A program made the translations under genes and the position numbers. From Candidatus Omnitrophota bacterium (GTDB taxonomy: Bacteria; Omnitrophota; Gorgyraeia; Zapsychrales; JANLHA01), in NCBI GenBank assembly GCA_029560465.1, contig JAKQKX010000082.1, forward strand, positions 4,947 to 68,946: 64,000 nucleotides of DNA. The letters run 5' to 3'. The notes under the pieces are model-generated. The model ran no database searches. It saw only the letters and a list, made by a program, of their open reading frames with translations, and had not been told where the DNA came from. Positions 1-20,646 of this stretch are shown piece by piece. Position 1 is the stretch's first letter; every line of letters starts with the position of its first letter.

Positions 1-762
1 AATGGTAAAGTCCTCCACCCCATGCAAAAACATATTCATGCGAGCGATCGTTGAGGTGGTAAGGTTCTTCTCTTGGCCAAAAATTTTGAGCGTCCGGTAA
101 TCCTGCTTCTTTTCTTTCAAATGGTTAATACATTCCAAAAGCATGCCGCCGGTGCCGCAGGCCGGGTCGTAAATAGACTCACCGGGCTTGGCATCTATAA
201 TCCGTCCCATTAGATTGACTACGGAACGCGGCGTATAAAACTCCCCCGCTTTCTTATTCGTTAAATCAGCGAAATGCTTGATCAAATATTCATACGCCTG
301 ACCAAGAATATCCGGTTCAATGTGGCCGTTAGCCAGATAGTATTGAGAGAAATGTTCAATGAGATTAATGAGAAGCTCGTCCGAAAGCCGGTCTTTATTC
401 GTCCACTGGGCGTCGCCAAAGATGCCGTAAAGAAACTTCTGGTTCGCCTTCTCAACCTCACGGAACGCGTATTGAAGCGCTTGACCGACATTCTTTGTAA
501 CCTGCCGCACATCATTCCAGTGACAGTTCTCCGGAATTATGAACCGGTGAAATTCCGGCAAACTCGCGTATTCCACATCGCCGCCCGACTCTTCTAAGGC
601 TTGTTTGTATTCGTCGTCATACACGTCTGAAATGCGCTTGAAGAACAAAAGCGGGAATATATAAACCTTGAAGTCGGCCGCGTCTACCGGGCCTTTTAGG
701 ATCCATGCGGCTTTGGAAAGATATTGCTCGAGTTGTGAAAGGGTTATTTTTCCGTTATTCAT
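1..762 (-). CDS. hsdM: Type I restriction-modification N6-adenine DNA methyltransferase subunit HsdM. N-terminal ~254 aa only; the C-terminus runs off the window start.
   Basis: My translation of the minus strand from the ATG at 760-762 reads MNNGKITLSQLEQYL...EFYTPRSVVNLM...DPACGTGGMLLE...NMFLHGVEDFTI with no stops down to nt 1. It contains the SAM-binding DPACGTGG motif and an HsdM-like N-domain. The start ATG overlaps the RadC stop (ATGA). Confidence 0.8.
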   Translation of the reverse strand, partial: MNNGKITLSQLEQYLSKAAWILKGPVDAADFKVYIFPLLFFKRISDVYDDEYKQALEESGGDVEYASLPEFHRFIIPENCHWNDVRQVTKNVGQALQYAFREVEKANQKFLYGIFGDAQWTNKDRLSDELLINLIEHFSQYYLANGHIEPDILGQAYEYLIKHFADLTNKKAGEFYTPRSVVNLMGRIIDAKPGESIYDPACGTGGMLLECINHLKEKKQDYRTLKIFGQEKNLTTSTIARMNMFLHGVEDFTI

Positions 763-1457
763 AACCCTCCCTGATCGGCAAAGCTGAAATGCTTATCGCC
801 TGCGATAATAATGTGATCCAAAAGCTTTATATCCAAGAGCTTCCCTGCATTGGACAAGTCCTGAGTGAATTTCCTGTCTTGTGCGCTTGGAGAACATTCC
901 GAGCTGGGATGGTTATGAACACAGACAATTGACTTGGCGAACTTCTGCAACGCGGCGTGGATTATTTCACGGACAATAGGAAATGCCTGATCAACGGTGC
1001 CGACCGCGGTATCAATGATGTCGATAATACGGTTATTGCTATCAAGATAAACAACCTTAAAAACCTCTGTCTTAAGGTCGCGAAGCTGAGGCATGACGAT
1101 ATCCACAACATCCTTGGCAGAGGCAATCTTCTGCTTCCCGGTGGACACATCGTCCTGTCGATAGCGCCGCCCGATTTCAAGCGCGGCCTGAATATGGGCA
1201 ATCTTGGCCCCGCCTAAACCCTTAAACTCTTTCCAGTCCCGGGCGTCGGTATGGGCCATGTTTCGGAATGTGCCGAATTTCTTTAAGATCTTGCGGGCGA
1301 GGTCAATGGCGCTGGTGCCAGCAGTACCGGTGCGAAGCAGAATGGCCAGAAGCTCTGAATTACTCAAAGCCCCTGCGCCCTTCTTGAGGAGTTTCTCTCT
1401 CGGCCTGTCATCCTCCGGCCAAGACTTTATGCCTGTAACTTTCTTTTCCTTCACCAT
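759..1457 (-). CDS. RadC-like JAB-domain protein
   Basis: 232 aa. The N-terminal region shows the RadC consensus (RPREKLL..GAGALSNSELLAILL). The C-terminal JAB/MPN metalloprotease-like motif HNHPS is present. Confidence 0.8.
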   Translation of the reverse strand: MVKEKKVTGIKSWPEDDRPREKLLKKGAGALSNSELLAILLRTGTAGTSAIDLARKILKKFGTFRNMAHTDARDWKEFKGLGGAKIAHIQAALEIGRRYRQDDVSTGKQKIASAKDVVDIVMPQLRDLKTEVFKVVYLDSNNRIIDIIDTAVGTVDQAFPIVREIIHAALQKFAKSIVCVHNHPSSECSPSAQDRKFTQDLSNAGKLLDIKLLDHIIIAGDKHFSFADQGGL

Positions 1458-1495
1458 TCTTCTCTTCTCTCGAATTAACCCGCAATTAAACTATC

Positions 1496-2023
1496 CTACG
1501 GAAGCGCAAAAGCGCGGCACTTAATGCGAATCTCTTTAAGCTCCTTCAGCACTGCCGTCAAGTCAAACGATTCACCGCGAAACGTCAAAGTCTGCGTCAA
1601 AGGATCATACGCCCTATGATGATTGCTAGGAAAATTTCTCTTCATTGACTTGAATGAATCTATTGCCAAGTCGCTGTAGACAGCCGAAGATTTCCCCTTA
1701 AACCATTTTTCTATTCGATCGTCATAGTGTTCGAAATGATTGCGGAATTTGCGATCAGAAAGAAGATTCCCTTCGTCGACTTTAAGCAACTCCCGCAATC
1801 TTTTGCCTCGTACCGCGTATTTCTTTTCCTGTGGCCATAAAATCTTCGATACGTTTCCAGTAGCCACGAGAATCGATTGAATTGAACTCCAAACTTCAAT
1901 CTGATCGAAATTTTTTGTGATCGCCGATAAACGTTTAGCCGCCAATTCTGCAATCTTTGACTGCAACACAATCTCGCCTATAAAAACCATCTCAGCAAGG
2001 GCTTTTTGTGGCCTATTATCCAT
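1496..2023 (-). CDS. Hypothetical protein with a possible HEPN-like Rx4H motif
   Basis: 175-aa ORF that is co-oriented and tightly spaced with its neighbours. The sequence LSDRKFRNHFEHYDDR contains R-x4-H, matching the HEPN nuclease Rx4-6H signature. The composition (K/E/L-rich) looks helical. No other family was recognised. Confidence 0.45.
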   Translation of the reverse strand: MDNRPQKALAEMVFIGEIVLQSKIAELAAKRLSAITKNFDQIEVWSSIQSILVATGNVSKILWPQEKKYAVRGKRLRELLKVDEGNLLSDRKFRNHFEHYDDRIEKWFKGKSSAVYSDLAIDSFKSMKRNFPSNHHRAYDPLTQTLTFRGESFDLTAVLKELKEIRIKCRAFALP

Positions 2024-2070
2024 CGTTCACTTCCTCAATTCATCTAAACTTCCGGCTACCGGATGGCCTT

Positions 2071-2760
2071 TCATAACTGATTCGGCAATCCGCCGTATAA
2101 GTCCTTTGATAATTCCGATTGCCAATATTCTTTGGTATCAATATCCATAATCGTCAGTTTGCCCGACCACCCAGCGCCGGTGTCCAGATCCCACACGTTG
2201 CAAACATGAATCGGCTCAAGCGTTCTATAAATCTCCGTTGTCGTATGGCCGATAAAAATATCATCGTATTTTGTGATCTGCGCTTCACGTCTATAATTAG
2301 CCGCTTCCCATGCGTCTTTTAATAAATCCCTATCCCACACAAGCACCTGAGCACTATTTTGTTCCAATGGCAAATCCGGCACAAAACCGGCATGAACGAA
2401 AAGCTTATTCCTGACTTCCAACCAAAGATGTCCACTTTTTAGGAAGTCAATATGCGTCTGCGGCATAGGCCCACCGTTATACGACGCCATCGTCCGGTCA
2501 CCACCTTGACTTGTCCATATCTCCGGCTTATCGCCTCGCAAGGCCCAGTCGAGCGCCCACATGTCATGATTGCCAATGATCAGATCGCAGTGCTTGATCT
2601 TTAATAACTCGTCGATACACTGCCTGACTTCCGGATACCCATCGCAAACATCACCCATCACGATCAGGCGGTCTTTCTTATAATCGAACTTTGAGCGCTC
2701 AAAGCACTGCATCATCGCCTTGTAGGCGCCGTGGATGTCCCCGATGGCGAAGGTTCTCAT
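2071..2760 (-). CDS. Calcineurin-like metallophosphoesterase (Ser/Thr phosphatase / ApaH-like)
   Basis: The motifs GDIHG, GDVCDG and GNHD occur in the canonical order of the PPP-family metallophosphatase signature. The stop overlaps the start of the upstream gene by 4 nt. Confidence 0.75.
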   Translation of the reverse strand: MRTFAIGDIHGAYKAMMQCFERSKFDYKKDRLIVMGDVCDGYPEVRQCIDELLKIKHCDLIIGNHDMWALDWALRGDKPEIWTSQGGDRTMASYNGGPMPQTHIDFLKSGHLWLEVRNKLFVHAGFVPDLPLEQNSAQVLVWDRDLLKDAWEAANYRREAQITKYDDIFIGHTTTEIYRTLEPIHVCNVWDLDTGAGWSGKLTIMDIDTKEYWQSELSKDLYGGLPNQL

Positions 2761-3548
2761 TCCTCAATCCTTCGCCGAATATCTCCAAACTTCTCAAACG
2801 CGTCTTCTCTCACATTCGCGACATAAGCGTCCGGGCCGTTTTCCTGCTCAACAAATAAAGGCCCCTTTGAGTCAACACTGGCAAAATACTCTTTGAGATT
2901 CTCTTTGACCTGTTTGCCTTCTTTCAGTTTTTTGATAAGGCCGACCACATCGTCGCAAAGCTGTGCCTTTGTCGGGCTGAATCTGATCATATAATAAACG
3001 TAATAAAGGTCTTTCCTGAGCTTAGCTTTGTTTTCCCGATCGACAAACGTCAGCAGTTTATGGAAAACAAACATCGATTCTGTCGGTATCTGGATACTCT
3101 TGCCGTTCATTTTCACCGGCATGACAGAGCCAAGTAACAAACTGAAATGCTGGATTTCATTGATCTTGATCTCTTGGCCAACGATCTTATTGATGACTTT
3201 CCGGGAAACCTTGGGGTCGGTGATAAATTCAACTTCCGCTTTGGCATCACCGGAGGCATCTTTTACAATAGGCACAAAGGGAATCAGTCTGTCCATTGAA
3301 GCGTGGCGCTCTCCGTATCCCAAACGTTGCACCCGGGAAGCAACAGTATCCTTCCCTTTAAAGTCATGATCACCAACGCCGAAATCGATGTCTCCAGTAG
3401 TCACTGCCATATTGGGGACGTCTTTCCACATGTGTTTGGCATAGATGTACGGTACCCAACCGCCAACCAGAACAAGATACGGCAAAAAATCAGCCAGATC
3501 GTCTATAACTTTGATGAGGAGCTTTTCTCCCGGGAATTCTTTAGGCAA
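2757..3548 (-). CDS. Pol-beta-fold nucleotidyltransferase (AbiEii-like, putative toxin component)
   Basis: 263 aa. The sequence VLVGGWVPY (hGG) followed by TGDIDFGV ([DE]h[DE]h) matches the minimal NTase active-site pattern. It overlaps the upstream wHTH gene by 8 nt. Confidence 0.55.
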   Translation of the reverse strand: MPKEFPGEKLLIKVIDDLADFLPYLVLVGGWVPYIYAKHMWKDVPNMAVTTGDIDFGVGDHDFKGKDTVASRVQRLGYGERHASMDRLIPFVPIVKDASGDAKAEVEFITDPKVSRKVINKIVGQEIKINEIQHFSLLLGSVMPVKMNGKSIQIPTESMFVFHKLLTFVDRENKAKLRKDLYYVYYMIRFSPTKAQLCDDVVGLIKKLKEGKQVKENLKEYFASVDSKGPLFVEQENGPDAYVANVREDAFEKFGDIRRRIEE

Positions 3549-4236
3549 TTGATTTTCCTTCCTCTTTTAATGTCTTGAATAAATACTCGGCATGATCACG
3601 GCCTCTCTGCGGAAAATGGTAGAGGTCCAAATAAAGCTGGAGATTCGAAACAACATTGTATCCTTTGATCACTTGGGTATTGAAAAATGTGGCGCTTTTA
3701 TAATACGGGTTTATTAAATAAAAATTACCGCCCGTCTTTAATTCCTTCAGATCAAGCACCTGCCGCAAGTCCAATGAAGCGCTTTTGAAATTCTTTACCG
3801 GCAGGTAACAATATATTGTCTGCGTGTTCACGTAGCTGGTAATGAGATTGGCCCCGGTATGAAGCGCCAGGGCGTATTGATTGGGCTCTTTCTTCCCTGC
3901 AAAATATTCCTTTAGCCGGGGAAGAATATCCTCTCGGGTTGAGTAATAAAGATGGGCCTCGTTAAGCTCAAACTTATAGACTTTGAGCCACTCCTCAAGA
4001 AGCTCTTCTTTGTTTTGCAATATGCTATGCGCGAGCCTGCCAGAACGGACTCCTCCGACAAACCCCTTGGCGCGAAGTTCTGATAGCACTTTTGCCGCGC
4101 GCGCGCGGCCCACGCCAAATTCTTTCTCGAAATCCCTAGCGACCCATTTCCTATCGGGTTGAGATAGCATGGCGCGAATGATTATGTTCGCCTTATCTCC
4201 TAAAAGTATTTTCATCGTAGTAACTCCTTCGTACAA
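3541..4236 (-). CDS. AbiEi-like winged-helix regulator (putative antitoxin/regulator of the NTase operon)
   Basis: 231 aa. The N-terminal segment ARDFEKEFGVGRARAAKVLSELRAKGFV looks wHTH-like. It is the first gene of the operon and sits downstream of the repeat-rich promoter. Confidence 0.5.
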   Translation of the reverse strand: MYEGVTTMKILLGDKANIIIRAMLSQPDRKWVARDFEKEFGVGRARAAKVLSELRAKGFVGGVRSGRLAHSILQNKEELLEEWLKVYKFELNEAHLYYSTREDILPRLKEYFAGKKEPNQYALALHTGANLITSYVNTQTIYCYLPVKNFKSASLDLRQVLDLKELKTGGNFYLINPYYKSATFFNTQVIKGYNVVSNLQLYLDLYHFPQRGRDHAEYLFKTLKEEGKSIA

Positions 4237-4272
4237 TCCATTACTTGACTATCTGTTAAGCCAAGGCATATT

Positions 4273-4332: not shown

Positions 4333-4562
4333 TACCATGATGCACCTGAGAGTCAAGAGAAATATCTGATGCAGGTCAGTAAAATTATGCCCATCCATGT
4401 CCATCAAAATGCCCTTTTTGAGCCCTCCCGGACGCCTGCAGGATACCCCTAAAATCGCCTGTTTTCCGACGCTGGGAGCTTATTTTGGCCGAGGTGACCA
4501 CTTATGCCCAAACCCCAAAAGTGATGGACATGGACATCGATTTTTTTGACCACTATCACTGG

Positions 4563-4672
4563 CTCCTTGCGCCTCGCCCGACCTGCTCCCCCACCCGGCT
4601 TCCAAGGACCCATGGCGCCTGCCAGCATAAAAAATCCCTATGGCCACGCCTCTCCGGCTCTACCATAGGGAC
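4563..4672. repeat. Conserved ~105-bp element, copy A. It carries a hairpin plus T-run that would act as a terminator on the minus strand.
   Basis: I aligned 4563-4672 to 11452-11554 by eye. Shared blocks are CTCCTGCGCCTCGCCCGACC, CCGGCTTCCAAGGACCC and AGCATAAAAAATCCCTATG...CCATAGGGA. The hairpin TCCCTATGG/CCATAGGGA is followed by T6 on the minus strand. Confidence 0.6.
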
Positions 4673-4947
4673 TTGAGTTGCTAAAGCGAGCTGATCCTTA
4701 CAACGCCCCGATTACCGCCTCCGCCAAGCGCGTCATCGCATTACTATAAATCTGCCACTGGCCAGCCGAAGGTGCGCAAAAGGATACGTAGCTTCTTCGG
4801 ACTTTTTTCTGTATTTTCTGCTCTGTTTCCGCTTGTTTTATCCATTTTAGCCCTTCGTCATAGCAAAGCTTCCACGGCCGGCTAGGCCCTTACCTTTAAA
4901 ATTTATGAGTGAAATACGGAATGACCAAAATATACAACTAGTTAAAT

Positions 4948-5832
4948 CTATTGTTTTATTCTGCCTAATTTTTGCATAATTAAATCCCCAAGTTGGTTCG
5001 GGCTCTTAAATTGTAAATCCACATAACAAATTGTCGGACGTAATCCGGGGAGTTCAGTCTTGTCAAAGCGCGCGGGCAAGATATACTCCCCTTTTTCTTC
5101 TAATTCTAAGGCTTTGGCTAAGGCACTTCCTCGCTCATGGCTCGGCCAAATCTTTTCCTTATAATGCTTGGAAATAAACATAACGCAATATCGAGCGTCG
5201 CCTCTGAATACTTTGTCTAAATGCTCAACCAAATCTTTTCCCCAGAGAGTGGCTTCTTCATACTTATCATAGAAGAAACGAATATTTTTTTTCTTTAAAT
5301 AGGCGGCAACTTTCTCGACATAATCCCTATCTTCTCCTGCGAATGAAAGCGCCACTTCATAGGCATTTTCACCCGGCATATTTTCTTTGTTCTCGCCGAT
5401 TCTTTTTGCCTTGTATATGCCTCTGCCAGATATCTGGGAATCTATATCAAGCCTATATCCATCCGGCTCCAAGTATTTGTTTAGCTCATCAACAACTTGT
5501 TTTACCTCACTCGCATCACGCTCTCGCAAGACAACAGGATGGACTACCTGTTCAATAAATTTTAAGAAGATAGTTTCGGGACATTCAAATAGTTTTAAAT
5601 AATTGGATAAGAGAAAATCTTCATCCCAGTCACTATTATTAATCATGTGTTGCCAGATGTCGCCTTCTGCATTTTCAAATCTGCCATCGGTGGAAGGCAT
5701 TGAGGACAAATCCCATACCCTTTTCAGGAAACCGACAAGGTCTAATTTACCGTAAAAAGGTTTACCTCTTACAAGTAGATAATCAATAATATCTCGTCGG
5801 GTTAATTCTGTAATAATCATTTCAAAAATCAT
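4948..5832 (-). CDS. TIR-domain protein with an unrecognised ~150-aa N-terminal domain
   Basis: The C-terminal half reads EVALSFAGEDRDYVEKVAAYLKKKNIRFFYD...CVMFISKHYKEKIWPSHE. This is the bacterial TIR pattern (SFAGEDR, an FxSxxY box, and a conserved Glu). Confidence 0.7.
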   Translation of the reverse strand: MIFEMIITELTRRDIIDYLLVRGKPFYGKLDLVGFLKRVWDLSSMPSTDGRFENAEGDIWQHMINNSDWDEDFLLSNYLKLFECPETIFLKFIEQVVHPVVLRERDASEVKQVVDELNKYLEPDGYRLDIDSQISGRGIYKAKRIGENKENMPGENAYEVALSFAGEDRDYVEKVAAYLKKKNIRFFYDKYEEATLWGKDLVEHLDKVFRGDARYCVMFISKHYKEKIWPSHERGSALAKALELEEKGEYILPARFDKTELPGLRPTICYVDLQFKSPNQLGDLIMQKLGRIKQ

Positions 5833-5897
5833 TTCTTTAGGCTTTTGTTATTTCAGCCCAATCCTTGCAAATAAGTACCGTCTGATTCAAAACTGTT

Positions 5898-6794
5898 TCA
5901 GTATCTTTTTGCTGTTAGTCTGGCGGGTAGCCATATTTTGTTCAGTAAACCCAGTGTTTTATCTATATCAAAACTTTTCTGCTCATCAATTGTCAGGACA
6001 GGGAACAGCTCATCAGAAAGCCGGGATTTCATTTCCTTTATTTCTTTGTCTTTTCTTCCAAGATTCACCCGGTAATTCTTTAAATCAGTTGAAAAGCCGT
6101 CCTCTTCAAGCTTTCGCTTGAAAAGTGATAGCAATTCCTTGCTTTTAAAATCAAACCCGCTTTTAAGTAAATAGCCCAAATCATAAAAATCCCGCGATGC
6201 AATAGTCTGCCTTGTTGATGCCGCCCGGAGCTTCTCAGCGACAAGCTCATTAATCGAAAGGCACGTTATCTTGCCGGCATCAAACAATTCTTCTTTTGTG
6301 AATGGGTGCAAGAATTTATGGTTGATTTTCCTGGTTGTAAAACTAAGCATAGGATTAAACCGAAGCCCGATTTCAAGCTTGATGGATTCTTTTTTGCCAA
6401 GAACCACTGAATCATAGTCAAGGTAATAGATGTATTGGGTGGATTCGTTATGTCCTGCGCTATCCAGATTCCCGACGCTCATTGCCAGTTTCTGTAATAG
6501 CGGCTGTAATGATTTCTTTATCGGTTCGATTGCTTTTTTTCGAATTGCGCGCGTTGCCTCATCTACAGGCAGTTTTAATGTAAAGTCCAAGTCCTCGCTT
6601 AAGCGGTAATATGAATAATAAACCTTGCTTAGTGCAGTGCCGCCCTTGAATACGAGGTCTGGGCTAAGCTCATTTATTTTTGAAAGAACTATGGTTATGT
6701 AATAATCTTTTTCAAGAAGCCGCAAGGGAAACCCTGTCTGGGCTGATGTCCTTTCAAGAATTTTTAAAAATTCAGATTTATTCTCATGAAGCAT
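5898..6794 (-). CDS. AbiEii/AbiGii-family nucleotidyltransferase toxin (DUF1814)
   Basis: FKGGTALSKVY followed by SEDLDF is the DUF1814 NTase signature. The gene overlaps the upstream AbiEi gene. Confidence 0.75.
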   Translation of the reverse strand: MLHENKSEFLKILERTSAQTGFPLRLLEKDYYITIVLSKINELSPDLVFKGGTALSKVYYSYYRLSEDLDFTLKLPVDEATRAIRKKAIEPIKKSLQPLLQKLAMSVGNLDSAGHNESTQYIYYLDYDSVVLGKKESIKLEIGLRFNPMLSFTTRKINHKFLHPFTKEELFDAGKITCLSINELVAEKLRAASTRQTIASRDFYDLGYLLKSGFDFKSKELLSLFKRKLEEDGFSTDLKNYRVNLGRKDKEIKEMKSRLSDELFPVLTIDEQKSFDIDKTLGLLNKIWLPARLTAKRY

Positions 6795-7593
6795 TTTCTA
6801 TGACCATCCATTTTTTGTTTATACTGCCTTTTCTTGACTGCGAAGGATAAATGTTAATCAGGGATGTCTTTTTGACTGCTTTTAATAGCGGGCTTAACAT
6901 GCCATCACTGACCCTGCATTCTTCAAGGGCAATGCCGATTCTTTTAATGAGTGCTGTATTGGAAGATTTAACCGCGTATTTAATAAGCCTTGCAATATCT
7001 GTCTTTTTTCCCATGACATCGGATTTCAATATCTCAAACGCTTTCTTTAATCCTCCGACTGGCTCGGAAAAATAAAACAGGTCAATCAGTGTTTTTTCCC
7101 TGTCGCTGACAATAACATCAGTGTCTTTTATTTTTATCGTTTCAAAACCATAAAGGCGTTTTGGGGCAATCTTAATCATCTTGAAGCGCATGTTGCTGAC
7201 AACCTTTTCTTTTTGAGTGGAAGTGTTCAGGATATACATTGTCTGGAAAAGCTGGTCAGTAAAGCCGTAGTAGTTGTACATTGTTGAATAGCCGATATAA
7301 TAATTTTTCTTTGGGAAAAAAAGCGGCGGGATTAGGAATTCATTGATGTTGCTCCCGGCAGGGCCTGCTTCCAAAGGTGAATACAAATAGACGCCATTCT
7401 TGATTTTTTTAAGAATGCCTTTTTTGGAAAGACGGTAAAGCGTCTTTGCCCGTATTGACTTGAGATAGCCAAATAACTTGTCAAACTCTTCCTGAGTGAT
7501 TACCGTCACTTTCTCATAGGAGAGCCTTGATATGACTTCCTGCTCTCTCGGATTCAAGTATTGCATTGTATTGTTCTTTATCATTTTGCCCAT
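6784..7593 (-). CDS. AbiEi-family antitoxin / transcriptional regulator
   Basis: 269 aa with an N-terminal wHTH. It is the first gene of the pair and overlaps the AbiEii start by 11 nt. Confidence 0.65.
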   Translation of the reverse strand: MGKMIKNNTMQYLNPREQEVISRLSYEKVTVITQEEFDKLFGYLKSIRAKTLYRLSKKGILKKIKNGVYLYSPLEAGPAGSNINEFLIPPLFFPKKNYYIGYSTMYNYYGFTDQLFQTMYILNTSTQKEKVVSNMRFKMIKIAPKRLYGFETIKIKDTDVIVSDREKTLIDLFYFSEPVGGLKKAFEILKSDVMGKKTDIARLIKYAVKSSNTALIKRIGIALEECRVSDGMLSPLLKAVKKTSLINIYPSQSRKGSINKKWMVIENAS

Positions 7594-7838
7594 AAATGGA
7601 AATGCTAGGAATTTACATACAATATAAATCTTATGGTTTTATTGCTGTTTGTCAATATATTTCAGCATGTTATGCGATAACTCCCCATCTCAGCAATCCG
7701 CTTCAAGACCCCTTCCATAATACGCCTGTAGCGCGCGCATCAATACCCTTTTCGTCACAACTTTTTTTCTGAATAAATTCCGTAAATTCCGGGGACACAC
7801 AACTAAACCTTATTTAGTGTGGGTGAGTAAATTATTCT

Positions 7839-8483
7839 TCAATTATCCGATGTAAGCAATCTTCGGCGATAATCATCCGCCGCGTCCTGCCGGTCACGCC
7901 GGTACTTGTAGACTTCATCACTAATCCTTGACGCCTCGCGTTGCGCATCCATCACAGCACGATGCTGTGCCTGCCATCCGGCGTCTGGCGCCATCATCAT
8001 TTGTTGTTGGCCTTGGGGCTGTTGAGCCTGGTTCTGTTCCTGGTACGGAGTAAACGCGAAAGCAATTAAGATAACTCCAAGAGCCATGACGACAATGGTC
8101 CCGGATGCAACATAAACCGAATTCTTGGGATTCTTGCGGACATAGGCACCCAAAGGCGAAAGCTTTCCCCTCCACGGACGATAGACAGCCGTAGAAAAAC
8201 GATAGGCTTTTTCTTCAAGCGGAGTCAGTCCCACCGGTATCTCATCGCCGGGAAGCGGCGGAGGCGTTGCTTTATCTCCGGGCAAAGGCGGCGGCTGAAT
8301 ACGGCTTTTGAATAATCCCGCCAATTCCTGAATCTCTACGGCCGGTTTCCAATTATTCATTCCCTCGCACCATGCGAGCATTTGGGAAGTAATCAGGCCT
8401 TCCGTAATATTTTTTTCGATGGCCTCCTGGTCAAACGGGCCGATTTTCTGATTGTCCTTGCCAAAATAATAAACTTTGCCCAT
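7839..8483 (-). CDS. DUF4339 (GYF-like) domain membrane protein with PPLPGD repeats
   Basis: KVYYFG..GPF......GLI....LAW.EGM..WKPA matches the DUF4339 pattern. PPPLPGD is repeated and one TM helix is present. I chose the start at MGKVYY because AGGAG lies upstream of it. Confidence 0.5.
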   Translation of the reverse strand: MGKVYYFGKDNQKIGPFDQEAIEKNITEGLITSQMLAWCEGMNNWKPAVEIQELAGLFKSRIQPPPLPGDKATPPPLPGDEIPVGLTPLEEKAYRFSTAVYRPWRGKLSPLGAYVRKNPKNSVYVASGTIVVMALGVILIAFAFTPYQEQNQAQQPQGQQQMMMAPDAGWQAQHRAVMDAQREASRISDEVYKYRRDRQDAADDYRRRLLTSDN

Positions 8484-8755
8484 GTCTTCTTCTCCTTTTT
8501 TGTCGCTTCCTAAAGTTCCAGAGACGCACAACCATACCTTATTTAGCTTGGGTTACGGCGCGCATCCCCCTCATTCAAAAAACACTCCTTGTTTTTTCAC
8601 CGTAGATCATTTGTTTGCCATCTAGTAAACTCCTTAAATAAATCGACTATACGATCCAACCGTCAGCCAAAACTTTTCAAATAAATCTTTTTAATCATAA
8701 TGGGTAATTATCGTTCAAGAAAGTTTTGTAGTATAAAATTTTTGGACTGCATTGA

Positions 8756-10465
8756 TTATCCAATTATTTCTTTAATATAAGGCCCTAAATCCATATCTTT
8801 ATACGAAGTCCCTGCCCGCACAACAGGGTATAAGACTTCCTCGACATCTGTCATGACTTCAAGCAGACAGGGGCCCGAGGATTTCATAAATAAGTCAAGC
8901 CCTTCGGACAACTCGCTACGGGAAGTAATTCTTTTTGAGAATTTGTACTGGCAGTGTTTAGCCAACTCAGAAAAATTCACATCAGATTTTCTTTCAGTGG
9001 CAGAGTGCCTTTTTCCATAGGACACATCTTCAAGATTCCTTACCATGCCATCACTTCGGTTGTTAAGAAGAAGTATTTTAATCGGCAAGTCAAGTGAACC
9101 GATTGTATGCAATTCCCCCATATTCATTCTGAAACTGCCATCCCCATCAATAACGATGACAGTCGCGTCAGGATTTGCGTAATATGCGCCTATCGCGCTC
9201 GGCATCCCAAAACCCATAGTGCCAAAACTTCCGGGTGTAAGAAATGACTTTGGCTTGCTCATCCGCAGATATTGAGCCGCTAAAAGTTGATGATTGCCTA
9301 CGCCTGTTGCAATTATTGTGTTGTTATCTACAAACGTGCTCATAAGGTCGAGCACTTCCGCCTGATGAATCAATTTTCCGTCCCGGCAATAATTCAACGG
9401 CCATGTTTTTTTCAGCTGGACTGCATATTGAATCCAATCATCAATGGCTATTCTTATATTCTTGCGCTTTGCATAATCAGTCAAATCATTAAGAGCACTG
9501 GCGGCATCACCAATAAAAGAAAAATCAGGGTTACGCTCATTTCTTATTTGATGGACTTTCTGGGTATTAATATCTATATAGGCAATTTTAGCTTCAATAG
9601 CAAACCCCACCTTTTCCGCTACACGGTCATCCCAGCGAACGCCAACAGCAAAAAAGAAATCATTTTTCTGGATTATTTTATTAGCGTAAGGCGTTCCAAA
9701 CATGCCTAATAACCCTAAAGAAGATGGCGCGTTTTCGTCAACAACTCCTTTGGCCATTAAGGTATTAACAGAAGGGATATTAAAAAGAGAATTAAATTTG
9801 CGTATGGCATCGCTTCCATCTTTTGAATTAAGGCCTCCGCCTAAATATAATAATGGGCGTTTTGCTTCTGTCAGTAGTTTAAAGAAATGCTCGCACTGTT
9901 TTTCGGAGAAATGCCATTCATTGCTATACACTGTTTTAAACCTATCAAGATTGTTGCCAGCGTATTTGTTAATACTCTGTTGAAGATTGATTGGAATATC
10001 AATAACAACTGGCCCGGGCTTTCCCGATTTTGCCAAGAAATAGGCGTCTTTAATAACGGACTCAATATTGTCGATGCTGTCCACAAGAACAACCTTCTTG
10101 GCAGTAGGCCCGAAGACTGCGGATACGTCAATATGCTGAAATGAGTCAGTCCCAATTTTATGCTCGGGAACCTGCCCGGCGATTACAATCAATGGAATAC
10201 TGTCAGCAAAAGAATCAGCTACAGCAGTTAAAGTGTTGGTAATAGCAGGCCCGGAAGTCACGATAGCGACTCCGACGCTGTCGCTTGCCCGGGAATAACC
10301 GGCGGCGCTAAAAGCAGAAGACTGCTCGTTGGAGTTAACAACAATCTGAATAGAACTTTTCCCCAGCTCATCCATTACCGGAAGTATAGCTGCTCCCGTA
10401 TATCCAAAGATGTGTTTTATCCCGAGGTCTTCCAGGCTTTTAACTAAAATTTCTGCGCCGTTCAT
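8756..10465 (-). CDS. Thiamine-pyrophosphate-dependent enzyme, acetolactate synthase large-subunit-like
   Basis: GAEILVKSLEDLGIKHIFGYTGAAILPVMDEL is a TPP_enzyme_N start. The later region GDGSFRMNMGELHT resembles the TPP-binding GDG..N motif. I chose the start at MNGAEIL because an AAGGAG RBS precedes it. Confidence 0.7.
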   Translation of the reverse strand: MNGAEILVKSLEDLGIKHIFGYTGAAILPVMDELGKSSIQIVVNSNEQSSAFSAAGYSRASDSVGVAIVTSGPAITNTLTAVADSFADSIPLIVIAGQVPEHKIGTDSFQHIDVSAVFGPTAKKVVLVDSIDNIESVIKDAYFLAKSGKPGPVVIDIPINLQQSINKYAGNNLDRFKTVYSNEWHFSEKQCEHFFKLLTEAKRPLLYLGGGLNSKDGSDAIRKFNSLFNIPSVNTLMAKGVVDENAPSSLGLLGMFGTPYANKIIQKNDFFFAVGVRWDDRVAEKVGFAIEAKIAYIDINTQKVHQIRNERNPDFSFIGDAASALNDLTDYAKRKNIRIAIDDWIQYAVQLKKTWPLNYCRDGKLIHQAEVLDLMSTFVDNNTIIATGVGNHQLLAAQYLRMSKPKSFLTPGSFGTMGFGMPSAIGAYYANPDATVIVIDGDGSFRMNMGELHTIGSLDLPIKILLLNNRSDGMVRNLEDVSYGKRHSATERKSDVNFSELAKHCQYKFSKRITSRSELSEGLDLFMKSSGPCLLEVMTDVEEVLYPVVRAGTSYKDMDLGPYIKEIIG

Positions 10466-10537
10466 TGAATGCTCCTTCTTAATGAGTCCATTCGATAATT
10501 TTGATATTTTGTCCAATTTTTTTAATGATGGATTCTT

Positions 10538-10738
10538 TCATGTTTGGGCAAGCAAAACCAATAGGATTTCAAACTCAGATGGGCTCAGATAACCAAGCGT
10601 TGAATGATCCCGTTTACGGTTCTCCCAAAACTTCTCGGATTCATCTTTATCTCCTGTGTGGTCCATTTCATTGCTAAAGGGGCACAATACGTTTATTTTT
10701 GCCTGAGCCTCATCAACCTTACTTAAAATCTTTTTCAT
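10538..10738 (-). pseudogene. IS3-family transposase C-terminal remnant
   Basis: FWENRKRDHSTLGYLSPSEFE matches the extreme C-terminus of IS3 OrfB (rve) proteins (…YN..RRHS.LGYLSP.EFE). The upstream catalytic domain is absent. Confidence 0.6.
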
Positions 10739-10776
10739 ATGACCGCCACCTTACTGGCTTAAGAGTCAAGAAATTG

Positions 10777-11376
10777 CTACGAATTCAATTGTTTAAATAT
10801 TTCACCTATCCAAGCCGGGGCATAACGAATATCGTTTATAAGCTGTTTTTTATCCTCGGCTGATAACTTTTTTTTAAGCGAATTAATAATCTTCTCGTCA
10901 ATATTTCTTTGTTTCATGTAACGGAAAGCCTGAATAACCAAGCCGCTCACACGCCCGGCAGTCGCCATATTCTTTGGTGATGTCTTCTTAAACTTAATTT
11001 GCCAGTTGCCAACTTGAACCGCCCGGGTAGAGCCATTTGTTAATAAAACAATCTTTGCCGGTACTTGATCAGACAACCCCAGCAAGTTGGCCGCGTATGC
11101 TCCTGAAGGCTGAATCTTAAGATTATCTTTTTCAGCAAGCGCGGCGGTAACACGCTCAACGCTCGGCGGCGTTTCTTCAAAATCCGGATGTTTTCGTGGA
11201 TAATCATAAAGTCCACGCGCTAATCTGCGGATATCTCCAGATCGAACCAGTCGGCTCAACGCCTGATCTACAGCGGCACGATTGCCAAGATCAAGAAAAT
11301 GGCTTGGGGCAAATACCCATCCCTTTTTCTTGCCGATAATCCGGCGAAGGATTTTACTCTCAATGGATTCTGTCAT
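10777..11376 (-). CDS. AbiEi_4 / DUF6088-type antitoxin-like protein (orphan)
   Basis: 199 aa with WVFAPSHFLDLG..AVDQALSRLVRSGDIRRLARGLYDYP at the N-terminus, which is the DUF6088 pattern. No cognate NTase lies downstream; an IS remnant sits there instead. Confidence 0.55.
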   Translation of the reverse strand: MTESIESKILRRIIGKKKGWVFAPSHFLDLGNRAAVDQALSRLVRSGDIRRLARGLYDYPRKHPDFEETPPSVERVTAALAEKDNLKIQPSGAYAANLLGLSDQVPAKIVLLTNGSTRAVQVGNWQIKFKKTSPKNMATAGRVSGLVIQAFRYMKQRNIDEKIINSLKKKLSAEDKKQLINDIRYAPAWIGEIFKQLNS

Positions 11377-11451
11377 ATTTATCTCTTTTTATAGTCAGAA
11401 ATAATATATTGCACTTCTGACAGAAAGTAAAGCTGTTTTTAAGCTCCTGCG

Positions 11452-11554
11452 CCTCGCCCGACCCTCACCCCACACCGGCTTCCAAGGACCCGTAGCCATA
11501 TCTAGGAGCATAAAAAATCCCTATGACCGCACGTCTCGATACGACCATAGGGAT
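11452..11554. repeat. Conserved ~105-bp element, copy B, 10 bp downstream of the bla stop on the minus strand
   Basis: Same alignment as copy A. The hairpin ATCCCTATGACC...GGTCATAGGGAT plus T6 reads as a terminator on the minus strand. Confidence 0.6.
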
Positions 11555-11563
11555 GACTGATTA

Positions 11564-12355
11564 TTACAAAAGGTTTTGTGACTTAAAGATATTCTCTATG
11601 ATCGTCCTGGCAGTCTTGCCCGAGGGATTCTCGCCTCCGGCAATATTGCAGGCAAAAACGTAGGTCGTGCCGTCATGCTCCAAGAAGCCCACAAACCAGC
11701 CCAAATTCCATTTCCCGTCAGGCCCTGTGCCGGAGCCGGTTTTGCCGTAAAGCGTTCCTTTGGTGGTCTTCTCTACCCGCATGATATCGCGTAGTAGCAC
11801 AATATTCTTTTCAGAAAACGGAAGCTTGCCATCCAAAAGCTTGTTTAAAAGAGCGACCTGTTCATCCGCGCTGATCTTGATAGATGTGGTTTCAGGGCGC
11901 GGAAGCCAGAAGATATCGATCCCGGCAGAAATATCCTGTGAGCCATAGCTGATCTTTCCAATATACTCCTTCATCCGGGCTTCACCGATCTGCTGTGCTA
12001 AGAGCTGGTATGCGGGGACGGCCGACACCCTAAACGCTTCGCGGAGCGTTAAATCCTGATTCCATCCCTCTATGTCACGCTTCACCCCATCCCATTTATA
12101 CCACGATTCATCAGCGCCCTTTATGAGCCCAAGCTCAAGCCCGATGAGCGTATTGTAGATCTTGAATGTCGAGCACGGCGAAAGACGCCGGGCGCTAAGC
12201 TTCGGATCCGCATTGACAACCTCGCCGTTTGCCCGGTTATAAATCACCAGAGCCGCGTCATACCCCTGCAAAAAAGCTTGATCGATTTCCTGAGCAAAGG
12301 AAACCGGCCCCATAAACAAAAAACAGATGCAAAATACGGTTTTATTTATACGCAT
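11564..12355 (-). CDS. Class D (OXA-type) beta-lactamase
   Basis: An N-terminal signal peptide is followed by the STFK active-site motif, an SAV (SxV) motif, YGKTGSG (KTG), and W..G (WFVGF). Confidence 0.8.
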   Translation of the reverse strand: MRINKTVFCICFLFMGPVSFAQEIDQAFLQGYDAALVIYNRANGEVVNADPKLSARRLSPCSTFKIYNTLIGLELGLIKGADESWYKWDGVKRDIEGWNQDLTLREAFRVSAVPAYQLLAQQIGEARMKEYIGKISYGSQDISAGIDIFWLPRPETTSIKISADEQVALLNKLLDGKLPFSEKNIVLLRDIMRVEKTTKGTLYGKTGSGTGPDGKWNLGWFVGFLEHDGTTYVFACNIAGGENPSGKTARTIIENIFKSQNLL

Positions 12356-12364
12356 AAACCCTCT

Positions 12365-13129
12365 TTACTTTTCCGCTACAACAAGCATCTCAAAATCCCC
12401 TGTCGTCAGCTTGTCGTTCCTTGAGTACGCCCCGAGCTTGGCGCCGAAAATATCGATTTTTTTATACCCCAGTGTCTTTAACAGCCATGTGAGTTCACTT
12501 GGCACATAGTAGCGCTCGTTACAGGTTAATTCCTTTTTTGTCCCCGCATCGTCCTCGAACACGACGGTATTGTGGTCCCGGAACGTCATCAGATCGAAAG
12601 AACAATTTTTACACGCTGAATTGCCTTCTTGGGCCGCGGACTCATAAAATTCTTTGACGGAATGAAAAAGCGGAAATAACCCGTTCAATGTCGTGAATAT
12701 AAACTTGCCCTTATCTTTTAACGCCTTTGTCGCGTTCTTCAATATTTCGTAATTCATCTCATCCGTTTCCATCAAAGAAAAACCGCCCTCACAGAGCATG
12801 ATCGCCAGATCGAATGCGTCTTCAAAAGGAAGGTTGCGTGCGTCATGTTTCTGAAAATCGATTGTCACCCCTGCCTCTTTGGCTTTTTCCTTTGCCCTTG
12901 CAAGCTGTGAGTCGGACAAATCCACGCCAGTCACGTTATTATACCCCCTTTTCGTCAGTTCGAGCGAATGACGGCCGGTGCCGCAACCGATATCGATGAT
13001 CTTTAAGGACTTATCGCGGCCGATTTCAGCTTCAATAAAATCGCATTCGCCCACAGTCCCCTGAACAAAGCATTCCTTATCGTATTTGCGGGCGTAATTC
13101 TCAAATAATGATTCGTACCATTGTTTCAT
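12365..13129 (-). CDS. Class I SAM-dependent methyltransferase
   Basis: DIGCGTGRHS is a SAM-binding motif I. Confidence 0.7.
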   Translation of the reverse strand: MKQWYESLFENYARKYDKECFVQGTVGECDFIEAEIGRDKSLKIIDIGCGTGRHSLELTKRGYNNVTGVDLSDSQLARAKEKAKEAGVTIDFQKHDARNLPFEDAFDLAIMLCEGGFSLMETDEMNYEILKNATKALKDKGKFIFTTLNGLFPLFHSVKEFYESAAQEGNSACKNCSFDLMTFRDHNTVVFEDDAGTKKELTCNERYYVPSELTWLLKTLGYKKIDIFGAKLGAYSRNDKLTTGDFEMLVVAEK

Positions 13130-13400
13130 TTGAATTCCTTTCAGGCTATTAGCCTATGCCTCTATTCGAATATCGCCTCGGCCAAGATTGTCATCGTCTT
13201 GCTGCAATCCTGCCACCGGCCAACCGTAGGTGGATATGTACACGCGTTTTTGTAGTTCGTTATTTTTCCTTAGGTTATGCATCTATATTTTTTATATTTA
13301 TCTCCAAATGGGGATGAATGATTATGGTTTTTGTTAACTTTTAGTCTCCCGCATTGATACTTCCGACCAAAGCCCTGAGCAATATAGGATTTGCATACAA

Positions 13401-20606: not shown

Positions 20607-20646
20607 AATCTTTTCTCCTTCCACTGGGATCAATATTATTGATACC

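What the first reader, a model, noticed from the sequence alone, without database searches (positions are those of the whole stretch)
4563..11554. AT-rich island of about 7 kb bracketed by the two repeat copies
Between the repeat copies the sequence is conspicuously more AT-rich than the flanks. It carries a TIR protein, an AbiEi/AbiEii pair, a DUF4339 protein, a TPP enzyme, an IS3 transposase remnant and an orphan AbiEi_4 antitoxin. Direct imperfect repeats at both ends, combined with an IS scar, suggest a horizontally acquired defence cassette or a decayed mobile element.
Basis: partly seen in the sequence, partly recalled or inferred. Interest (0 to 1): 0.55.

Follow-up and report, generated by a model that had tools for sequence, protein, structure and literature searches.

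The report
Decayed mobile element between packaging signals
The 7-kb stretch is the worn-down remainder of a mobile element carrying anti-phage genes, and the two repeats that bracket it are copies of a short DNA signal also found just ahead of the DNA-packaging genes of a family of uncultivated phages, so the region probably consists of two phage-parasitising elements sitting in tandem.

Summary
The repeats and the gene list are real. The AT-richness is weak: 42.0% GC against 45.2%, and 22% of equal-sized windows are as low. The repeats are not the ends of an island. Each is a terminator hairpin plus a ~45-nt GC-rich core. That core occurs in 48 metagenome loci. In 41 of 49 related phage contigs it sits about 1.9-2.0 kb upstream of a lambda-type large terminase gene. 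I therefore read it as a cos-like packaging signal.

The true recombination junctions are elsewhere. One is a large-serine-recombinase (LSR) attL-type junction at ~13,223, where gene order with related Omnitrophota genomes ends. The other is an intact attP-type site at ~4,766, inside a 61-codon LSR remnant.

The best model has two related LSR elements in tandem. E1 (13,223-4,766) is decayed: truncated LSR, a Fic gene cut by an IS3 scar, and a packaging signal reduced to its core. Its intact ORFs include AbiEi/AbiEii, AbiJ_NTD3-TIR, an acetolactate-synthase-like enzyme and an OXA-like gene. E2 (4,765 to beyond position 1) keeps the complete signal.

The closest analogue is P4/P2, which share a cos site with adjacent defence hotspots. 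Packaging function and helper dependence are inferred, not shown.

The parts
13165..13242 (-). attL-type junction (host half | P' half) of an LSR-integrated element. The crossover lies at about 13224|13223. The P' half encodes ..GRWQDCSKTMTILAEAIFE*.
   Evidence: tblastn to LSR C-termini gives E=0.001-0.009. In the alignment of 7 such junctions, homology starts at ..ACCT(A/T)(C/T)GG| and the left sides are unrelated. Gene order with L072 and L073 ends here.
12365..13129 (-). SAM-dependent methyltransferase, cargo of 'slot 1' between attL and the hairpin.
   Evidence: Pfam Methyltransf_25, E=2e-21. L021 has LSR, then an MTase homologue, then the hairpin and core. There is no homologue in the syntenic loci L072 and L073.
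11564..12355 (-). Class D beta-lactamase-like gene, slot 1 cargo.
   Evidence: Pfam Transpeptidase, E=4e-31. NCBIfam bla_class_D_main scores 220.6 bits, below the 250 cut-off. The gene sits in the same slot in L037, L046 and L056 at ~83% nt identity.
11517..11554 (-). Hairpin R, an intrinsic-terminator-shaped stem-loop followed by a T run.
   Evidence: Terminator scan finds 16 pairs. Fold energy is -20.5 kcal/mol, z=-4.5.
11443..11491 (-). GC-rich core, copy R (GGGTCCTTGGAAG..GGTCGGGCGAGGCGCAGGAGC). It is truncated: it is fused directly to the DUF6088 promoter region and lacks CAGTGAT and the repeat-motif unit.
   Evidence: nhmmer E=8e-14. It is the only one of 37 versions without CAGTGAT. Microhomology GGCGC.GGAGC is seen in L021, L049 and L037.
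10777..11376 (-). DUF6088/AbiEi-type antitoxin-like gene. Its Fic partner is lost.
   Evidence: Pfam DUF6088, E=5e-45. PADLOC AbiEi, E=5e-73. DUF6088-Fic pairs occur in L021 and L037.
10538..10738 (-). Chimeric 66-aa ORF: the Fic N-terminus (24 aa, 10667-10738) fused to a probable IS3/rve C-terminal remnant (~10541-10640).
   Evidence: The sequence compares with the intact L021 Fic, MKEILSKVDEAQAKINALRPFSNEM... Fic Pfam hit for L021 is E=4e-23, and the rve_2 hit here is E=0.053.
8756..10516 (-). Acetolactate-synthase-like TPP enzyme (cargo).
   Evidence: Pfam TPP_enzyme N, M and C domains. NCBIfam acolac_lg scores 500.6 bits against a cut-off of 538.
7839..8531 (-). GYF_2 domain protein with a proline-rich stretch and a hydrophobic stretch.
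   Evidence: Pfam GYF_2, E=1e-14. The proline-rich and hydrophobic stretches are read by eye from the translation.
5898..7593 (-). AbiEi (6784-7593) and AbiEii (5898-6794), an overlapping gene pair.
   Evidence: PADLOC AbiEi E=1.5e-48 and AbiEii E=6.6e-39. Pfam AbiEii, E=2e-30.
4948..5832 (-). AbiJ_NTD3-TIR protein.
   Evidence: Pfam AbiJ_NTD3 E=1e-52 and TIR_2 E=4e-18. PADLOC PDC-S66, E=8e-16.
4698..4883 (-). 3' remnant (61 codons plus stop) of a large serine recombinase gene. It contains an unrecombined attP-type site, with the crossover at about 4766|4765. This marks the E1/E2 border.
   Evidence: tblastn to L033 LSR residues 521-581 gives 64% identity, E=1e-20. Compared with L027, sequence diverges right after CCTTCGG.
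4635..4671 (-). Hairpin L, terminator-shaped and followed by a T run.
   Evidence: Fold energy is -25.4 kcal/mol, z=-5.4.
4568..4611 (-). GC-rich core, copy L (cos-like core).
   Evidence: nhmmer E=1e-12. It aligns with phage contigs.
4270..4567 (-). Repeat-motif unit following the core. It holds CAGTGAT (4555-4561), GATGTCCATGTCCATC (4523-4538), an inverted copy (4391-4405) and four AAATGTCCACT repeats (4273-4332).
   Evidence: (I1). The unit is conserved in L021, L033, L046, L049 and L056. The first ~60 nt are shared with phages.
1..4236 (-). Visible part of element E2: AbiEi_2 (3541-4236), NTP_transf_8 (2757-3548), metallophosphatase (2071-2760), a 175-aa unknown (1496-2023), RadC (759-1457) and the start of HsdM (1-762), which runs off the window.
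   Evidence: Pfam. L011 is the same strain and continues with two HsdM genes. The same backbone occurs in L041, L046, L056 and L029.

Best explanation
Window positions 1 to about 13,223 form a composite mobile region integrated by a large serine recombinase (LSR). It consists of two related elements in tandem.

The canonical single element in relatives, read on the minus strand, runs as follows. First attL, then 'slot 1' cargo, then a terminator hairpin. Next come a ~45-nt GC-rich core and a unit of TGTCCAT/TGTCCAC repeats, followed by 'slot 2' cargo of AbiE-like two-gene modules. The backbone then follows: metallophosphatase, a 175-aa unknown, RadC and type I R-M genes. The element ends with the LSR gene and attR.

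The hairpin, core and repeat unit most likely form a cos-like packaging signal copied from a family of phages with lambda-type (GpA) terminase. That would let a helper phage package these terminase-less elements, as P4 uses P2's cos.

- E1 (13,223-4,766) is dead as a mobile element. Its LSR is cut to 61 codons, its Fic gene is truncated next to an IS3 scar, and its signal is reduced to the core by a ~330-nt microhomology deletion. Its remaining cargo ORFs are intact: AbiEi/AbiEii, AbiJ_NTD3-TIR, DUF6088, an ALS-like enzyme, GYF, an OXA-like gene and an MTase. Whether they still function was not tested.
- E2 (4,765 to beyond position 1) keeps the full signal.

The tandem probably arose when a circular second element recombined with a resident one at the homologous signal module, or when a heterodimer integrated.

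Shown: the anatomy, the homologies, the junction positions and the break in gene order.
Inferred: the packaging function, helper dependence and the order of events.
For: 1. The core is widespread, and its upstream context varies.
- There are 48 metagenome matches against about 0.5 expected by my own estimate.
- The 5' boundary is sharp. Upstream genes include OXA, MTase, LSR, TIR, prim-pol and a 295-aa unknown.

2. The core is tied to phage packaging genes.
- In phage contigs it lies between a prim-pol/D5 primase gene and a ParB-MTase gene. Next come TerL with GpA_ATPase and GpA_nuclease domains (E=2e-78 and 4e-63) and a lambda-family portal gene (E=1e-109).
- In 41 of 49 related phage loci it lies on the terL strand 1.87-2.15 kb upstream, with one at 2.7 kb. 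Five of the eight misses lack enough upstream sequence.
- Copy L aligns with phage sequence over about 105 nt, copy R over about 47 nt only.
- The downstream motif subtypes are shared by phages and terminase-less elements.
- A phage contig with the matching subtype, L080, comes from the same sample (3300010355) as the window strain's contig L011.

3. The LSR junctions lie elsewhere.
- The 61-codon LSR remnant at 4883-4701 matches at E=1e-20.
- In L027 the LSR 3' end is fused to the start of host miaB, with divergence right after CCTTCGG.
- Seven host|P' junctions, including window 13,232-13,167, and five intact attP sites, including window 4,830-4,691, align accordingly.

4. Gene order supports an insertion.
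- L072 and L073 keep DUF2064, rSAM, DUF3108, GT2, DUF547 and FA_hydroxylase at 62-81% aa identity. They then run straight into a P-type ATPase, with no MTase or OXA.

5. Related elements show the single-element layout.
- L056 and L046 have OXA, hairpin, core, unit, slot 2 and RadC with a single signal.
- L033 and L041 have LSR, attP, hairpin, core and unit, matching window 4877-4388 at 83%.

6. The hairpin folds strongly in all ten versions tested despite divergent inner stems.

7. P4 and P2 share only their cos site, and their defence hotspots are directly adjacent to it (PMC9122126).
Against: - No experiment or read-end data shows that the core is cut or packaged. No GenBank phage carries it, so cos ends are unverified.
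- The core also sits next to primase genes, and the unit is iteron-like, so an origin or regulatory role is not excluded.
- No replication gene or helper-interference gene is visible in the window-type elements.
- The left end (attR and its LSR) lies outside the window. The element could therefore still be a large defective prophage.
- The 13.2-kb junction could alternatively be a second heavily eroded LSR remnant, since its left half has weak similarity to attP.
- The search pattern itself fixed 22 nt of the core, so conservation among the 48 metagenome loci is overstated. The phage loci were found independently through TerL.
- Some phage loci encode serine recombinases too, which blurs the line between satellite and defective prophage.
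Confidence: 0.6

Rival explanations
1. One reading: 4563-11554 is a discrete island that inserted between conserved chromosomal flanks, and the ~110-nt imperfect direct repeats are its ends (att sites or duplicated target).
For: - Two direct repeats bracket the block.
- Related elements L056 and L046 have one repeat copy and lack the block.
- An IS scar and an LSR remnant lie inside it.
Against: - The flanks are themselves accessory. Gene order with related genomes ends at ~13.3 kb.
- The left flank is the backbone of the same element family.
- The repeat is an internal module found in dozens of elements and phages.
- The LSR crossover sites map to ~4,766 and ~13,223, not to the repeats.
- Copy R is closer to L049 (88%) than to copy L (77-84%).
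Confidence: 0.08
2. The GC core plus the TGTCCAT/TGTCCAC repeats is a replication origin or a regulatory (late-promoter or operator) region shared by the phages and the elements. It would not be a packaging signal. The elements would then borrow replication or transcription factors from the phage.
For: - The core lies 150-600 nt downstream of prim-pol/D5 primase-helicase genes in phages and in L023, L027, L039, L031 and L038.
- The unit has iteron-like direct and inverted repeats.
- Staphylococcal pathogenicity islands (SaPIs) and P4 place iteron origins next to their primase (my own knowledge).
Against: - The distance to terL is fixed across phages whose upstream genes differ. Only 7 of 70 loci keep that primase, while 49 keep ParB-MTase.
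- A ~45-nt GC-rich invariant block is unusual for an origin, which is normally AT-rich.
- The window-type elements show no primase in any sequence held.
- The known precedent for a 'sole homologous region between satellite and helper' is cos.
Confidence: 0.2
3. The region is the remains of one or two defective prophages of that phage family, with structural genes deleted. It would not be made of dedicated satellite-type elements.
For: - The phages share the core, and some share a primase and serine recombinases.
- E1 is demonstrably decayed.
Against: - The same terminase-less backbone recurs at 78-90% nt identity in at least five contigs from different samples: the window, L041, L046, L056 and L029. 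The backbone runs signal, slot 2, metallophosphatase, 175-aa unknown, RadC, type I R-M.
- No TerL, portal or capsid fragment is found in the window or those loci.
Confidence: 0.2
4. The repeats are an ordinary dispersed host repeat (REP- or terminator-type) that happens to occur twice.
For: Each copy includes a terminator-shaped hairpin downstream of a gene.
Against: - There are only two copies in 64 kb.
- The core occurs in phage contigs at a fixed place.
- It occurs in elements inserted at different host sites.
Confidence: 0.03

Closest known systems
P4-like satellites and their P2-like helpers (shared cos site with adjacent defence hotspots; Rousset et al. 2022, PMC9122126)
   Same: - A short packaging-signal region is the only sequence shared between terminase-encoding phages and terminase-less integrative elements.
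- Highly variable defence cargo (R-M, Abi/TA-type modules) sits directly next to it.
- Some relatives carry a prim-pol/D5-type primase.
   Different: - Integration uses a large serine recombinase whose attP lies inside its own 3' end. P4 uses a tyrosine integrase.
- The presumed helper has a lambda-type GpA terminase, not a P2-type one.
- Variable slots lie on both sides of the signal.
- No psu, sid or delta-type capsid-remodelling or helper-control genes are recognised.
- The host is probably Omnitrophota from anaerobic digesters.
- Nothing has been shown experimentally.
cos-packaged staphylococcal pathogenicity islands (SaPIs) such as SaPIbov5 (Carpena et al. 2016, PMC5052747)
   Same: These are chromosomal islands that carry the helper phage's cos site and are packaged by the helper terminase.
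   Different: Different lineage, integrase type and gene set. SaPIs have a defined repressor, primase-rep and ccm modules that are not seen here.
Lambda cos (cosQ-cosN-cosB immediately upstream of Nu1 and A) (my own knowledge)
   Same: - Position just upstream of the packaging operon of a GpA-family terminase.
- A GC-rich core followed, on the terminase side, by repeated short motifs.
   Different: - No sequence similarity was established.
- Nick sites, IHF site and small-terminase binding are unknown.
- A ParB-MTase gene lies between the site and terL.
Satellites with serine recombinases: phage-inducible chromosomal island-like elements (PLEs) and marine virion-encapsidated integrative mobile elements (VEIMEs), module 3 (Eppley et al. 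2022, PMC9618062)
   Same: Phage-parasitising integrative elements that use serine recombinases and carry R-M or Abi-like cargo.
   Different: No gene-level relationship was tested. Those elements were defined from virions, whereas this one is defined only from genome context.
AbiE (AbiEi/AbiEii) type IV toxin-antitoxin / abortive infection systems
   Same: An overlapping AbiEi-AbiEii pair at 5898-7593. AbiE-like pairs (AbiEi_2 with NTP_transf_8, and DUF6088 with Fic in relatives) fill slot 2.
   Different: This describes only the cargo, not the structure of the region.

Membership tests
LSR-integrated mobile element | A large serine recombinase gene (Resolvase, Recombinase and Zn_ribbon_recom domains) belonging to the element. 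| tested here: inconclusive
   Only a 61-codon 3' remnant lies in the window. Full genes occur in the related elements L033, L041, L021 and L027. The LSR that made the 13.2-kb junction would lie left of the window.
LSR-integrated mobile element | Hybrid att junctions: homology to attP stops at a defined crossover, with an unrelated host half. | tested here: met
   One search aligns 7 host|P' junctions, including window 13232-13167, and 5 intact attP sites. Searches show one P|host junction (L027, at miaB).
LSR-integrated mobile element | An unoccupied site in related genomes. | tested here: met
   L072 and L073 keep six collinear genes up to FA_hydroxylase and then a P-type ATPase, with no element. 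This holds at the level of gene order only. The exact attB sequence was not identified.
Phage satellite (P4-like, or like phage-inducible chromosomal islands, in the broad sense) | Lacks terminase, portal and capsid genes but carries the helper's packaging signal. | tested here: inconclusive
   There are no TerL, portal or orf375 hits in the window or the related element loci. The core and about 60 nt beyond it are shared with phage contigs at a fixed place upstream of terL. The left part of the element is unseen, and the packaging role is unproven.
Phage satellite (P4-like, or like phage-inducible chromosomal islands, in the broad sense) | Its own replication module (primase or rep plus origin). 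| tested here: not met
   None is found in window 1-13223 or in L041, L046 or L056. Other core-bearing elements do have one (L023, L027, L039, L031, L038).
Phage satellite (P4-like, or like phage-inducible chromosomal islands, in the broad sense) | Induction and packaging by a helper phage. | not testable with these tools
   This needs virion DNA or an experiment. The only relevant result is co-occurrence of a matching phage contig (L080) in sample 3300010355.
cos site of a GpA-terminase phage | Located at the start of the packaging module. | tested here: met
   In 41 of 49 phage loci the core lies on the same strand, 1.87-2.15 kb upstream of terL and directly before the first gene of the module.
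cos site of a GpA-terminase phage | Staggered nicks that give cohesive ends within the site. | not testable with these tools
   Contig L080 starts inside the core and L079 starts 45 nt upstream. Assembly breaks at shared repeats would explain this equally well.
Genomic island defined by deviant composition | GC content or oligonucleotide usage outside the range of the host. | tested here: not met
   GC is at the 22nd percentile. The tetranucleotide z-score is 1.46, and 7% of host windows are as deviant.
IS-bounded composite transposon | Two IS copies or ends flanking the cargo. | tested here: not met
   There is a single ~100-nt probable IS3 remnant and no second copy or inverted repeats.
Island integrated at a tRNA or tmRNA gene | A repeat derived from the 3' end of a tRNA or tmRNA gene. 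| tested here: not met
   There is no tRNA or tmRNA in the window and no Rfam match. Among 16 related loci there is one unrelated tRNA.
AbiE abortive-infection / TA system (cargo) | Adjacent AbiEi antitoxin and AbiEii nucleotidyltransferase genes. | tested here: met
   PADLOC gives AbiEi E=1.5e-48 and AbiEii E=6.6e-39. The genes overlap by 11 nt.

The most novel reading that the evidence does not exclude
The hairpin-core-repeat module marks an undescribed family of phage satellites in Omnitrophota and other bacteria of anaerobic digesters, sediments and groundwater.
- They integrate with a large serine recombinase whose attP lies inside its own 3' end.
- They mimic the cos site of phages with lambda-type terminase.
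- They use both sides of that site as hotspots for defence cargo (AbiE-like pairs, TIR, type I R-M) and other cargo such as OXA-like beta-lactamases.
- They can accumulate in tandem by recombining at the shared signal.
Probability: 0.4. Interest if true: 0.65.

Novelty: new member of a known kind. Interest (0 to 1): 0.5.

Why it matters
If the core is a cos signal, this gives a sequence handle for finding satellite-helper pairs in uncultivated bacteria. The handle is a ~45-nt motif placed at a fixed distance from terL. Phage satellites are so far known mainly from Proteobacteria and Firmicutes.

It would also show that the arrangement of defence hotspots next to cos, described for P2 and P4, recurs in an unrelated recombinase and terminase background. 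That would support the idea that packaging sites are general points of cargo exchange.

The elements also carry an OXA-like beta-lactamase gene, which would then sit on phage-mobilisable DNA.

For annotation there is a practical lesson. In this genome composition does not reveal the island. The att junctions and comparison with related loci do.

Tried and rejected
- tRNA or tmRNA attachment site: no tRNA in the window, and one unrelated tRNA in 16 related loci.
- Known RNA family: no Rfam hit at gathering thresholds. Only noise appears at E up to 10 over 4200-4960.
- Scan of species-representative genomes for the core: 8 hits, all in high-GC Solirubrobacterales or other Actinomycetes. I read these as coincidental and did not follow them up.
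- Idea that the GC core is the LSR att site: rejected. In L027 the LSR crossover lies inside the LSR 3' end, and the core is internal, between the primase and LSR genes.
- Integron-like attC cassettes: considered because of the conserved hairpin base with a variable centre. There is no IntI, the blocks are multi-gene, and the motif is tied to phage terminase genes.
- Coding potential of the core: 1-nt indels between versions argue against an ORF.
- Remnant of the P-type ATPase expected beside FA_hydroxylase: none in the window.
- Confirming the IS3 scar with the IS3 transposase of L071: uninformative, because that copy lacks the C-terminus.
- GenBank phages: no nucleotide match to the signal. 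The nearest TerL is only 42% identical.
- Literature search for the core sequence: no paper. The search on Omnitrophota, prophage and satellite returned nothing relevant.
- Extending the contig leftwards through RadC: no longer contig is on record.

Full report
**Observation**

The two repeat copies exist, at 4565-4674 and 11445-11555, in direct orientation. They share 90 identical positions over 117 gapped columns, and ungapped blocks reach 84-87%. Three exact shared words of 16-19 nt occur nowhere else in the 64 kb, against 0.04-0.5 expected by chance.

- AbiJ_NTD3-TIR
- an overlapping AbiEi/AbiEii pair
- a GYF_2 (ex-DUF4339) protein
- an acetolactate-synthase-like TPP enzyme
- DUF6088/AbiEi_4

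The 'IS3 remnant' is a C-terminal rve-type motif in a 66-aa ORF (rve_2 E=0.053). The first 24 residues of that ORF are the N-terminus of a Fic protein. In relatives an intact 246-aa Fic gene follows DUF6088. The 'orphan antitoxin' has therefore lost a Fic partner.

The compositional claim is weak.
- The region is 42.0% GC against 45.2% for the window, and 22% of equal-sized windows are as low or lower.
- The tetranucleotide distance to the host part gives z=1.46.
- The more AT-rich 20-36 kb stretch encodes ordinary genes.

**What the repeats are**

On the gene strand each copy starts with a strong hairpin followed by a T run (-20.5 and -25.4 kcal/mol). A GC-rich core follows: GGGTCCTTGGAAG-N15-GGTCGGGCGAGGCGCA.

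A metagenome scan for that core returned 48 loci, against about 0.5 expected by my own estimate.
- The 5' edge of the core is sharp. The gene upstream varies: OXA-like, methyltransferase, LSR, TIR, prim-pol/D5 primase, or a 295-aa unknown.
- Downstream, all related versions continue with ..CAGTGAT, an A-rich stretch and a tandem TGTCNNTGTCNN motif. The only exceptions are one chance hit (L058) and the window's own copy R.
- In the window's subfamily the whole ~450-nt module is conserved whatever the neighbouring genes are. It consists of the hairpin, the core, GATGTCCATGTCCATC, an inverted copy of that motif, and four AAATGTCCACT repeats.
- Ten hairpin versions all fold well, with a conserved stem base and divergent inner stems.

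**Link to phages**

Three IMG/VR contigs carry the core between a prim-pol/D5 primase gene and a packaging module. The module consists of ParB_N with an N6/N4 methylase, a small ORF, a large terminase with lambda GpA ATPase and nuclease domains, and a lambda-family portal.

I then fetched 70 phage loci through that terminase alone and searched them with a profile of the core.
- 41 of the 49 loci with upstream sequence have the core. It is on the terL strand, 1.87-2.15 kb upstream, with one at 2.7 kb.
- Five of the eight misses have less than 2 kb upstream.
- Copy L aligns with these phages over about 105 nt, from GGGTCC to CACTTTTGGG. Copy R aligns only over the ~47-nt core.
- The motif subtypes (GATGTCCATGTCCAT, GATGTCAATGTCAAT, GTGTCGTGGTCGT) occur in both phages and terminase-less elements.
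- A phage contig with the window's subtype (L080) comes from JGI sample 3300010355, which also yielded contig L011 of the window's strain.

The module is a short GC-rich block with one-sided repeats, placed at the head of the packaging operon of a lambda-type terminase. It is also the only sequence shared with elements that lack terminase. Together these are the signature of a cos site borrowed by satellites. That is the situation documented for P2 and P4, whose defence hotspots lie directly next to cos (PMC9122126).

This step is an inference. No GenBank phage carries the sequence, and no end-mapping was possible.

**Where the recombination junctions really are**

Window 4883-4701 encodes the last 61 residues of a large serine recombinase, at 64% identity to the L033 LSR (E=1e-20). 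It lies between the TIR stop codon and hairpin L.

In L027 a full LSR of this clade sits at the edge of an element. Its last codons are replaced by sequence that runs into the start of host miaB, and the nucleotide sequences part right after CCTTCGG. The crossover site of these recombinases is therefore inside their own 3' end, not in the GC core.

Aligning all such sites gives three classes:
- Five unrecombined attP sites: window 4830-4691, L021, L033, L041 and L057.
- One P|host junction: L027.
- Seven host|P' junctions: window 13232-13167, L046, L056, L061, L029, L045 and L037. In these, homology begins at ..ACCT(A/T)(C/T)GG| and the left sides are unrelated and AT-rich.

The window therefore has an attL-type junction at about 13224|13223 and an internal intact attP at about 4766|4765.

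**Gene order in related genomes**

Homologues of the FA_hydroxylase gene (13401-14159) led to two related genome assemblies, L072 and L073. The L072 assembly (GCA_015232535.1) is labelled Candidatus Omnitrophica.

Both keep the run DUF2064, radical SAM, DUF3108, GT2, DUF547 and FA_hydroxylase, at 62-81% amino-acid identity. About 30 nt later they continue into a P-type ATPase, with no methyltransferase, OXA-like gene or island.

**Architecture**

Related elements share a common layout:
1. attL
2. slot 1, which is empty or holds an MTase, an OXA-like gene, or up to 6.6 kb in L057
3. hairpin, core and repeat unit
4. slot 2, which holds DUF6088-Fic or other AbiE-like pairs
5. metallophosphatase, the 175-aa unknown, RadC and type I R-M genes
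6. LSR and attR

L056 and L046 are single elements with OXA, one signal and the RadC backbone. L033 and L041 show LSR, attP, hairpin, core and unit, collinear with window 4877-4388.

The window reads as two such elements in tandem.
- **E1 (13,223-4,766):** attL, MTase, OXA, hairpin R, core R, DUF6088, Fic remnant, IS3 remnant, TPP enzyme, GYF, AbiEi/AbiEii, TIR, and the LSR remnant with attP.
- **E2 (4,765 to beyond position 1):** hairpin L, core L, the repeat unit, AbiEi_2, NTP_transf_8, metallophosphatase, the 175-aa unknown, RadC and HsdM. It continues in L011 with two HsdM genes.

Copy R ends ..GGCGCAGGAGC|TTAAAAACAGC. Relatives have GGCGC(T/C)GGAGCTTAAAAACAGC just before DUF6088, after the repeat unit. 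A ~330-nt deletion between these microhomologies explains the missing unit.

How the tandem arose is inferred. One route is homologous recombination of a circular second element with a resident one at the shared module. The other is integration of a heterodimer. Either leaves an intact attP inside.

**Rivals**

An origin or regulatory role for the module is not excluded, because it is iteron-like and lies next to primase genes in some members. A defective-prophage origin is also possible, because some phage loci also encode serine recombinases. However, the same terminase-less backbone recurs in at least five contigs from different samples. A host dispersed repeat, a tRNA-type att site and an integron-type cassette were tested or considered and rejected.

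**Verdict**

The finding is real as a mobile, defence-laden and partly decayed region.

It is best filed as a new member of a known kind: a satellite-like, recombinase-integrated element that shares a packaging signal with phages and carries defence cargo next to that signal. Packaging and helper dependence remain to be shown.

I am most confident in the LSR element and the positions of its junctions. I am less sure of the cos reading and of the tandem E1/E2 history. Confidence in the combined explanation is about 0.6.

Noticed in passing
window 11564-12355 (also L037, L046, L056): A class D beta-lactamase-like gene occupies the same cargo slot of the LSR element in four different contigs at ~83% nt identity. 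Its NCBIfam bla_class_D_main score is 220.6 bits, below the 250 cut-off. It would be a resistance-type gene on a possibly phage-mobilisable element.
   Followed up: partly
window 4698-4883; L027 9150-9200 (coordinates in the orientation used): The attP of this LSR clade lies inside the 3' end of the recombinase gene, so integration replaces its last ~20 codons. In L027 the element sits right at the start codon of miaB.
   Followed up: partly
window 8784-8808 and 4529-4641: Metagenome contigs of the same strain from several independent assemblies all break at these two places. This suggests co-existing variants. Contigs L015, L022 and L026 join a different core variant (GGGGGCTTGGGTGAG) to the same E2 flank.
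   Followed up: partly
window 7778-7824 and 8507-8553: A 47-nt direct repeat (79% identity) lies on either side of the GYF_2 gene. Its meaning is unknown.
   Followed up: no
window 20000-36000: This is the most AT-rich part of the window (38-42% GC). It encodes ordinary genes: peroxiredoxin, B12/radical SAM, ARMT1-like, MinD/Fer4 NTPases and a pyridine nucleotide-disulphide oxidoreductase. Low GC is therefore not a marker of foreign DNA in this genome.
   Followed up: partly
window 4568-4611 and all related cores: The gene-sense strand of the core has four or more G3-5 tracts with short loops in most versions (for example GGGGGTGTCGGGTGAGGGTCGGG). This is a G-quadruplex-type pattern, and its relevance is unknown.
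   Followed up: no
L037 ~4420-4548 (oriented as); L025, L029, L030, L045 upstream of the hairpin: A short, widely seen motif (..GTCATCCTGAGC..GCGAAGGATC..) appears as a ~130-nt insertion inside the cos-like unit of L037. It also appears just upstream of the hairpin in four other loci. It may be a small mobile repeat.
   Followed up: no
L020, L024, L028, L043, L052, L054, L059, L064, L067 and others (14 loci): In a second group of core-bearing loci, a conserved 295-aa protein with no significant Pfam match ends 32-55 nt before the core. Some have an HTH gene plus a different LSR clade or R-M genes after it. Whether these are phages or satellites was not determined.
   Followed up: partly
L099, L088, L100, L076, L078, L131, L105, L086 (left ends): Several of the terminase-bearing phage loci encode a serine recombinase about 2.5 kb upstream of the core on the opposite strand. 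It is 31-36% identical to the element LSRs in the catalytic domain.
   Followed up: no
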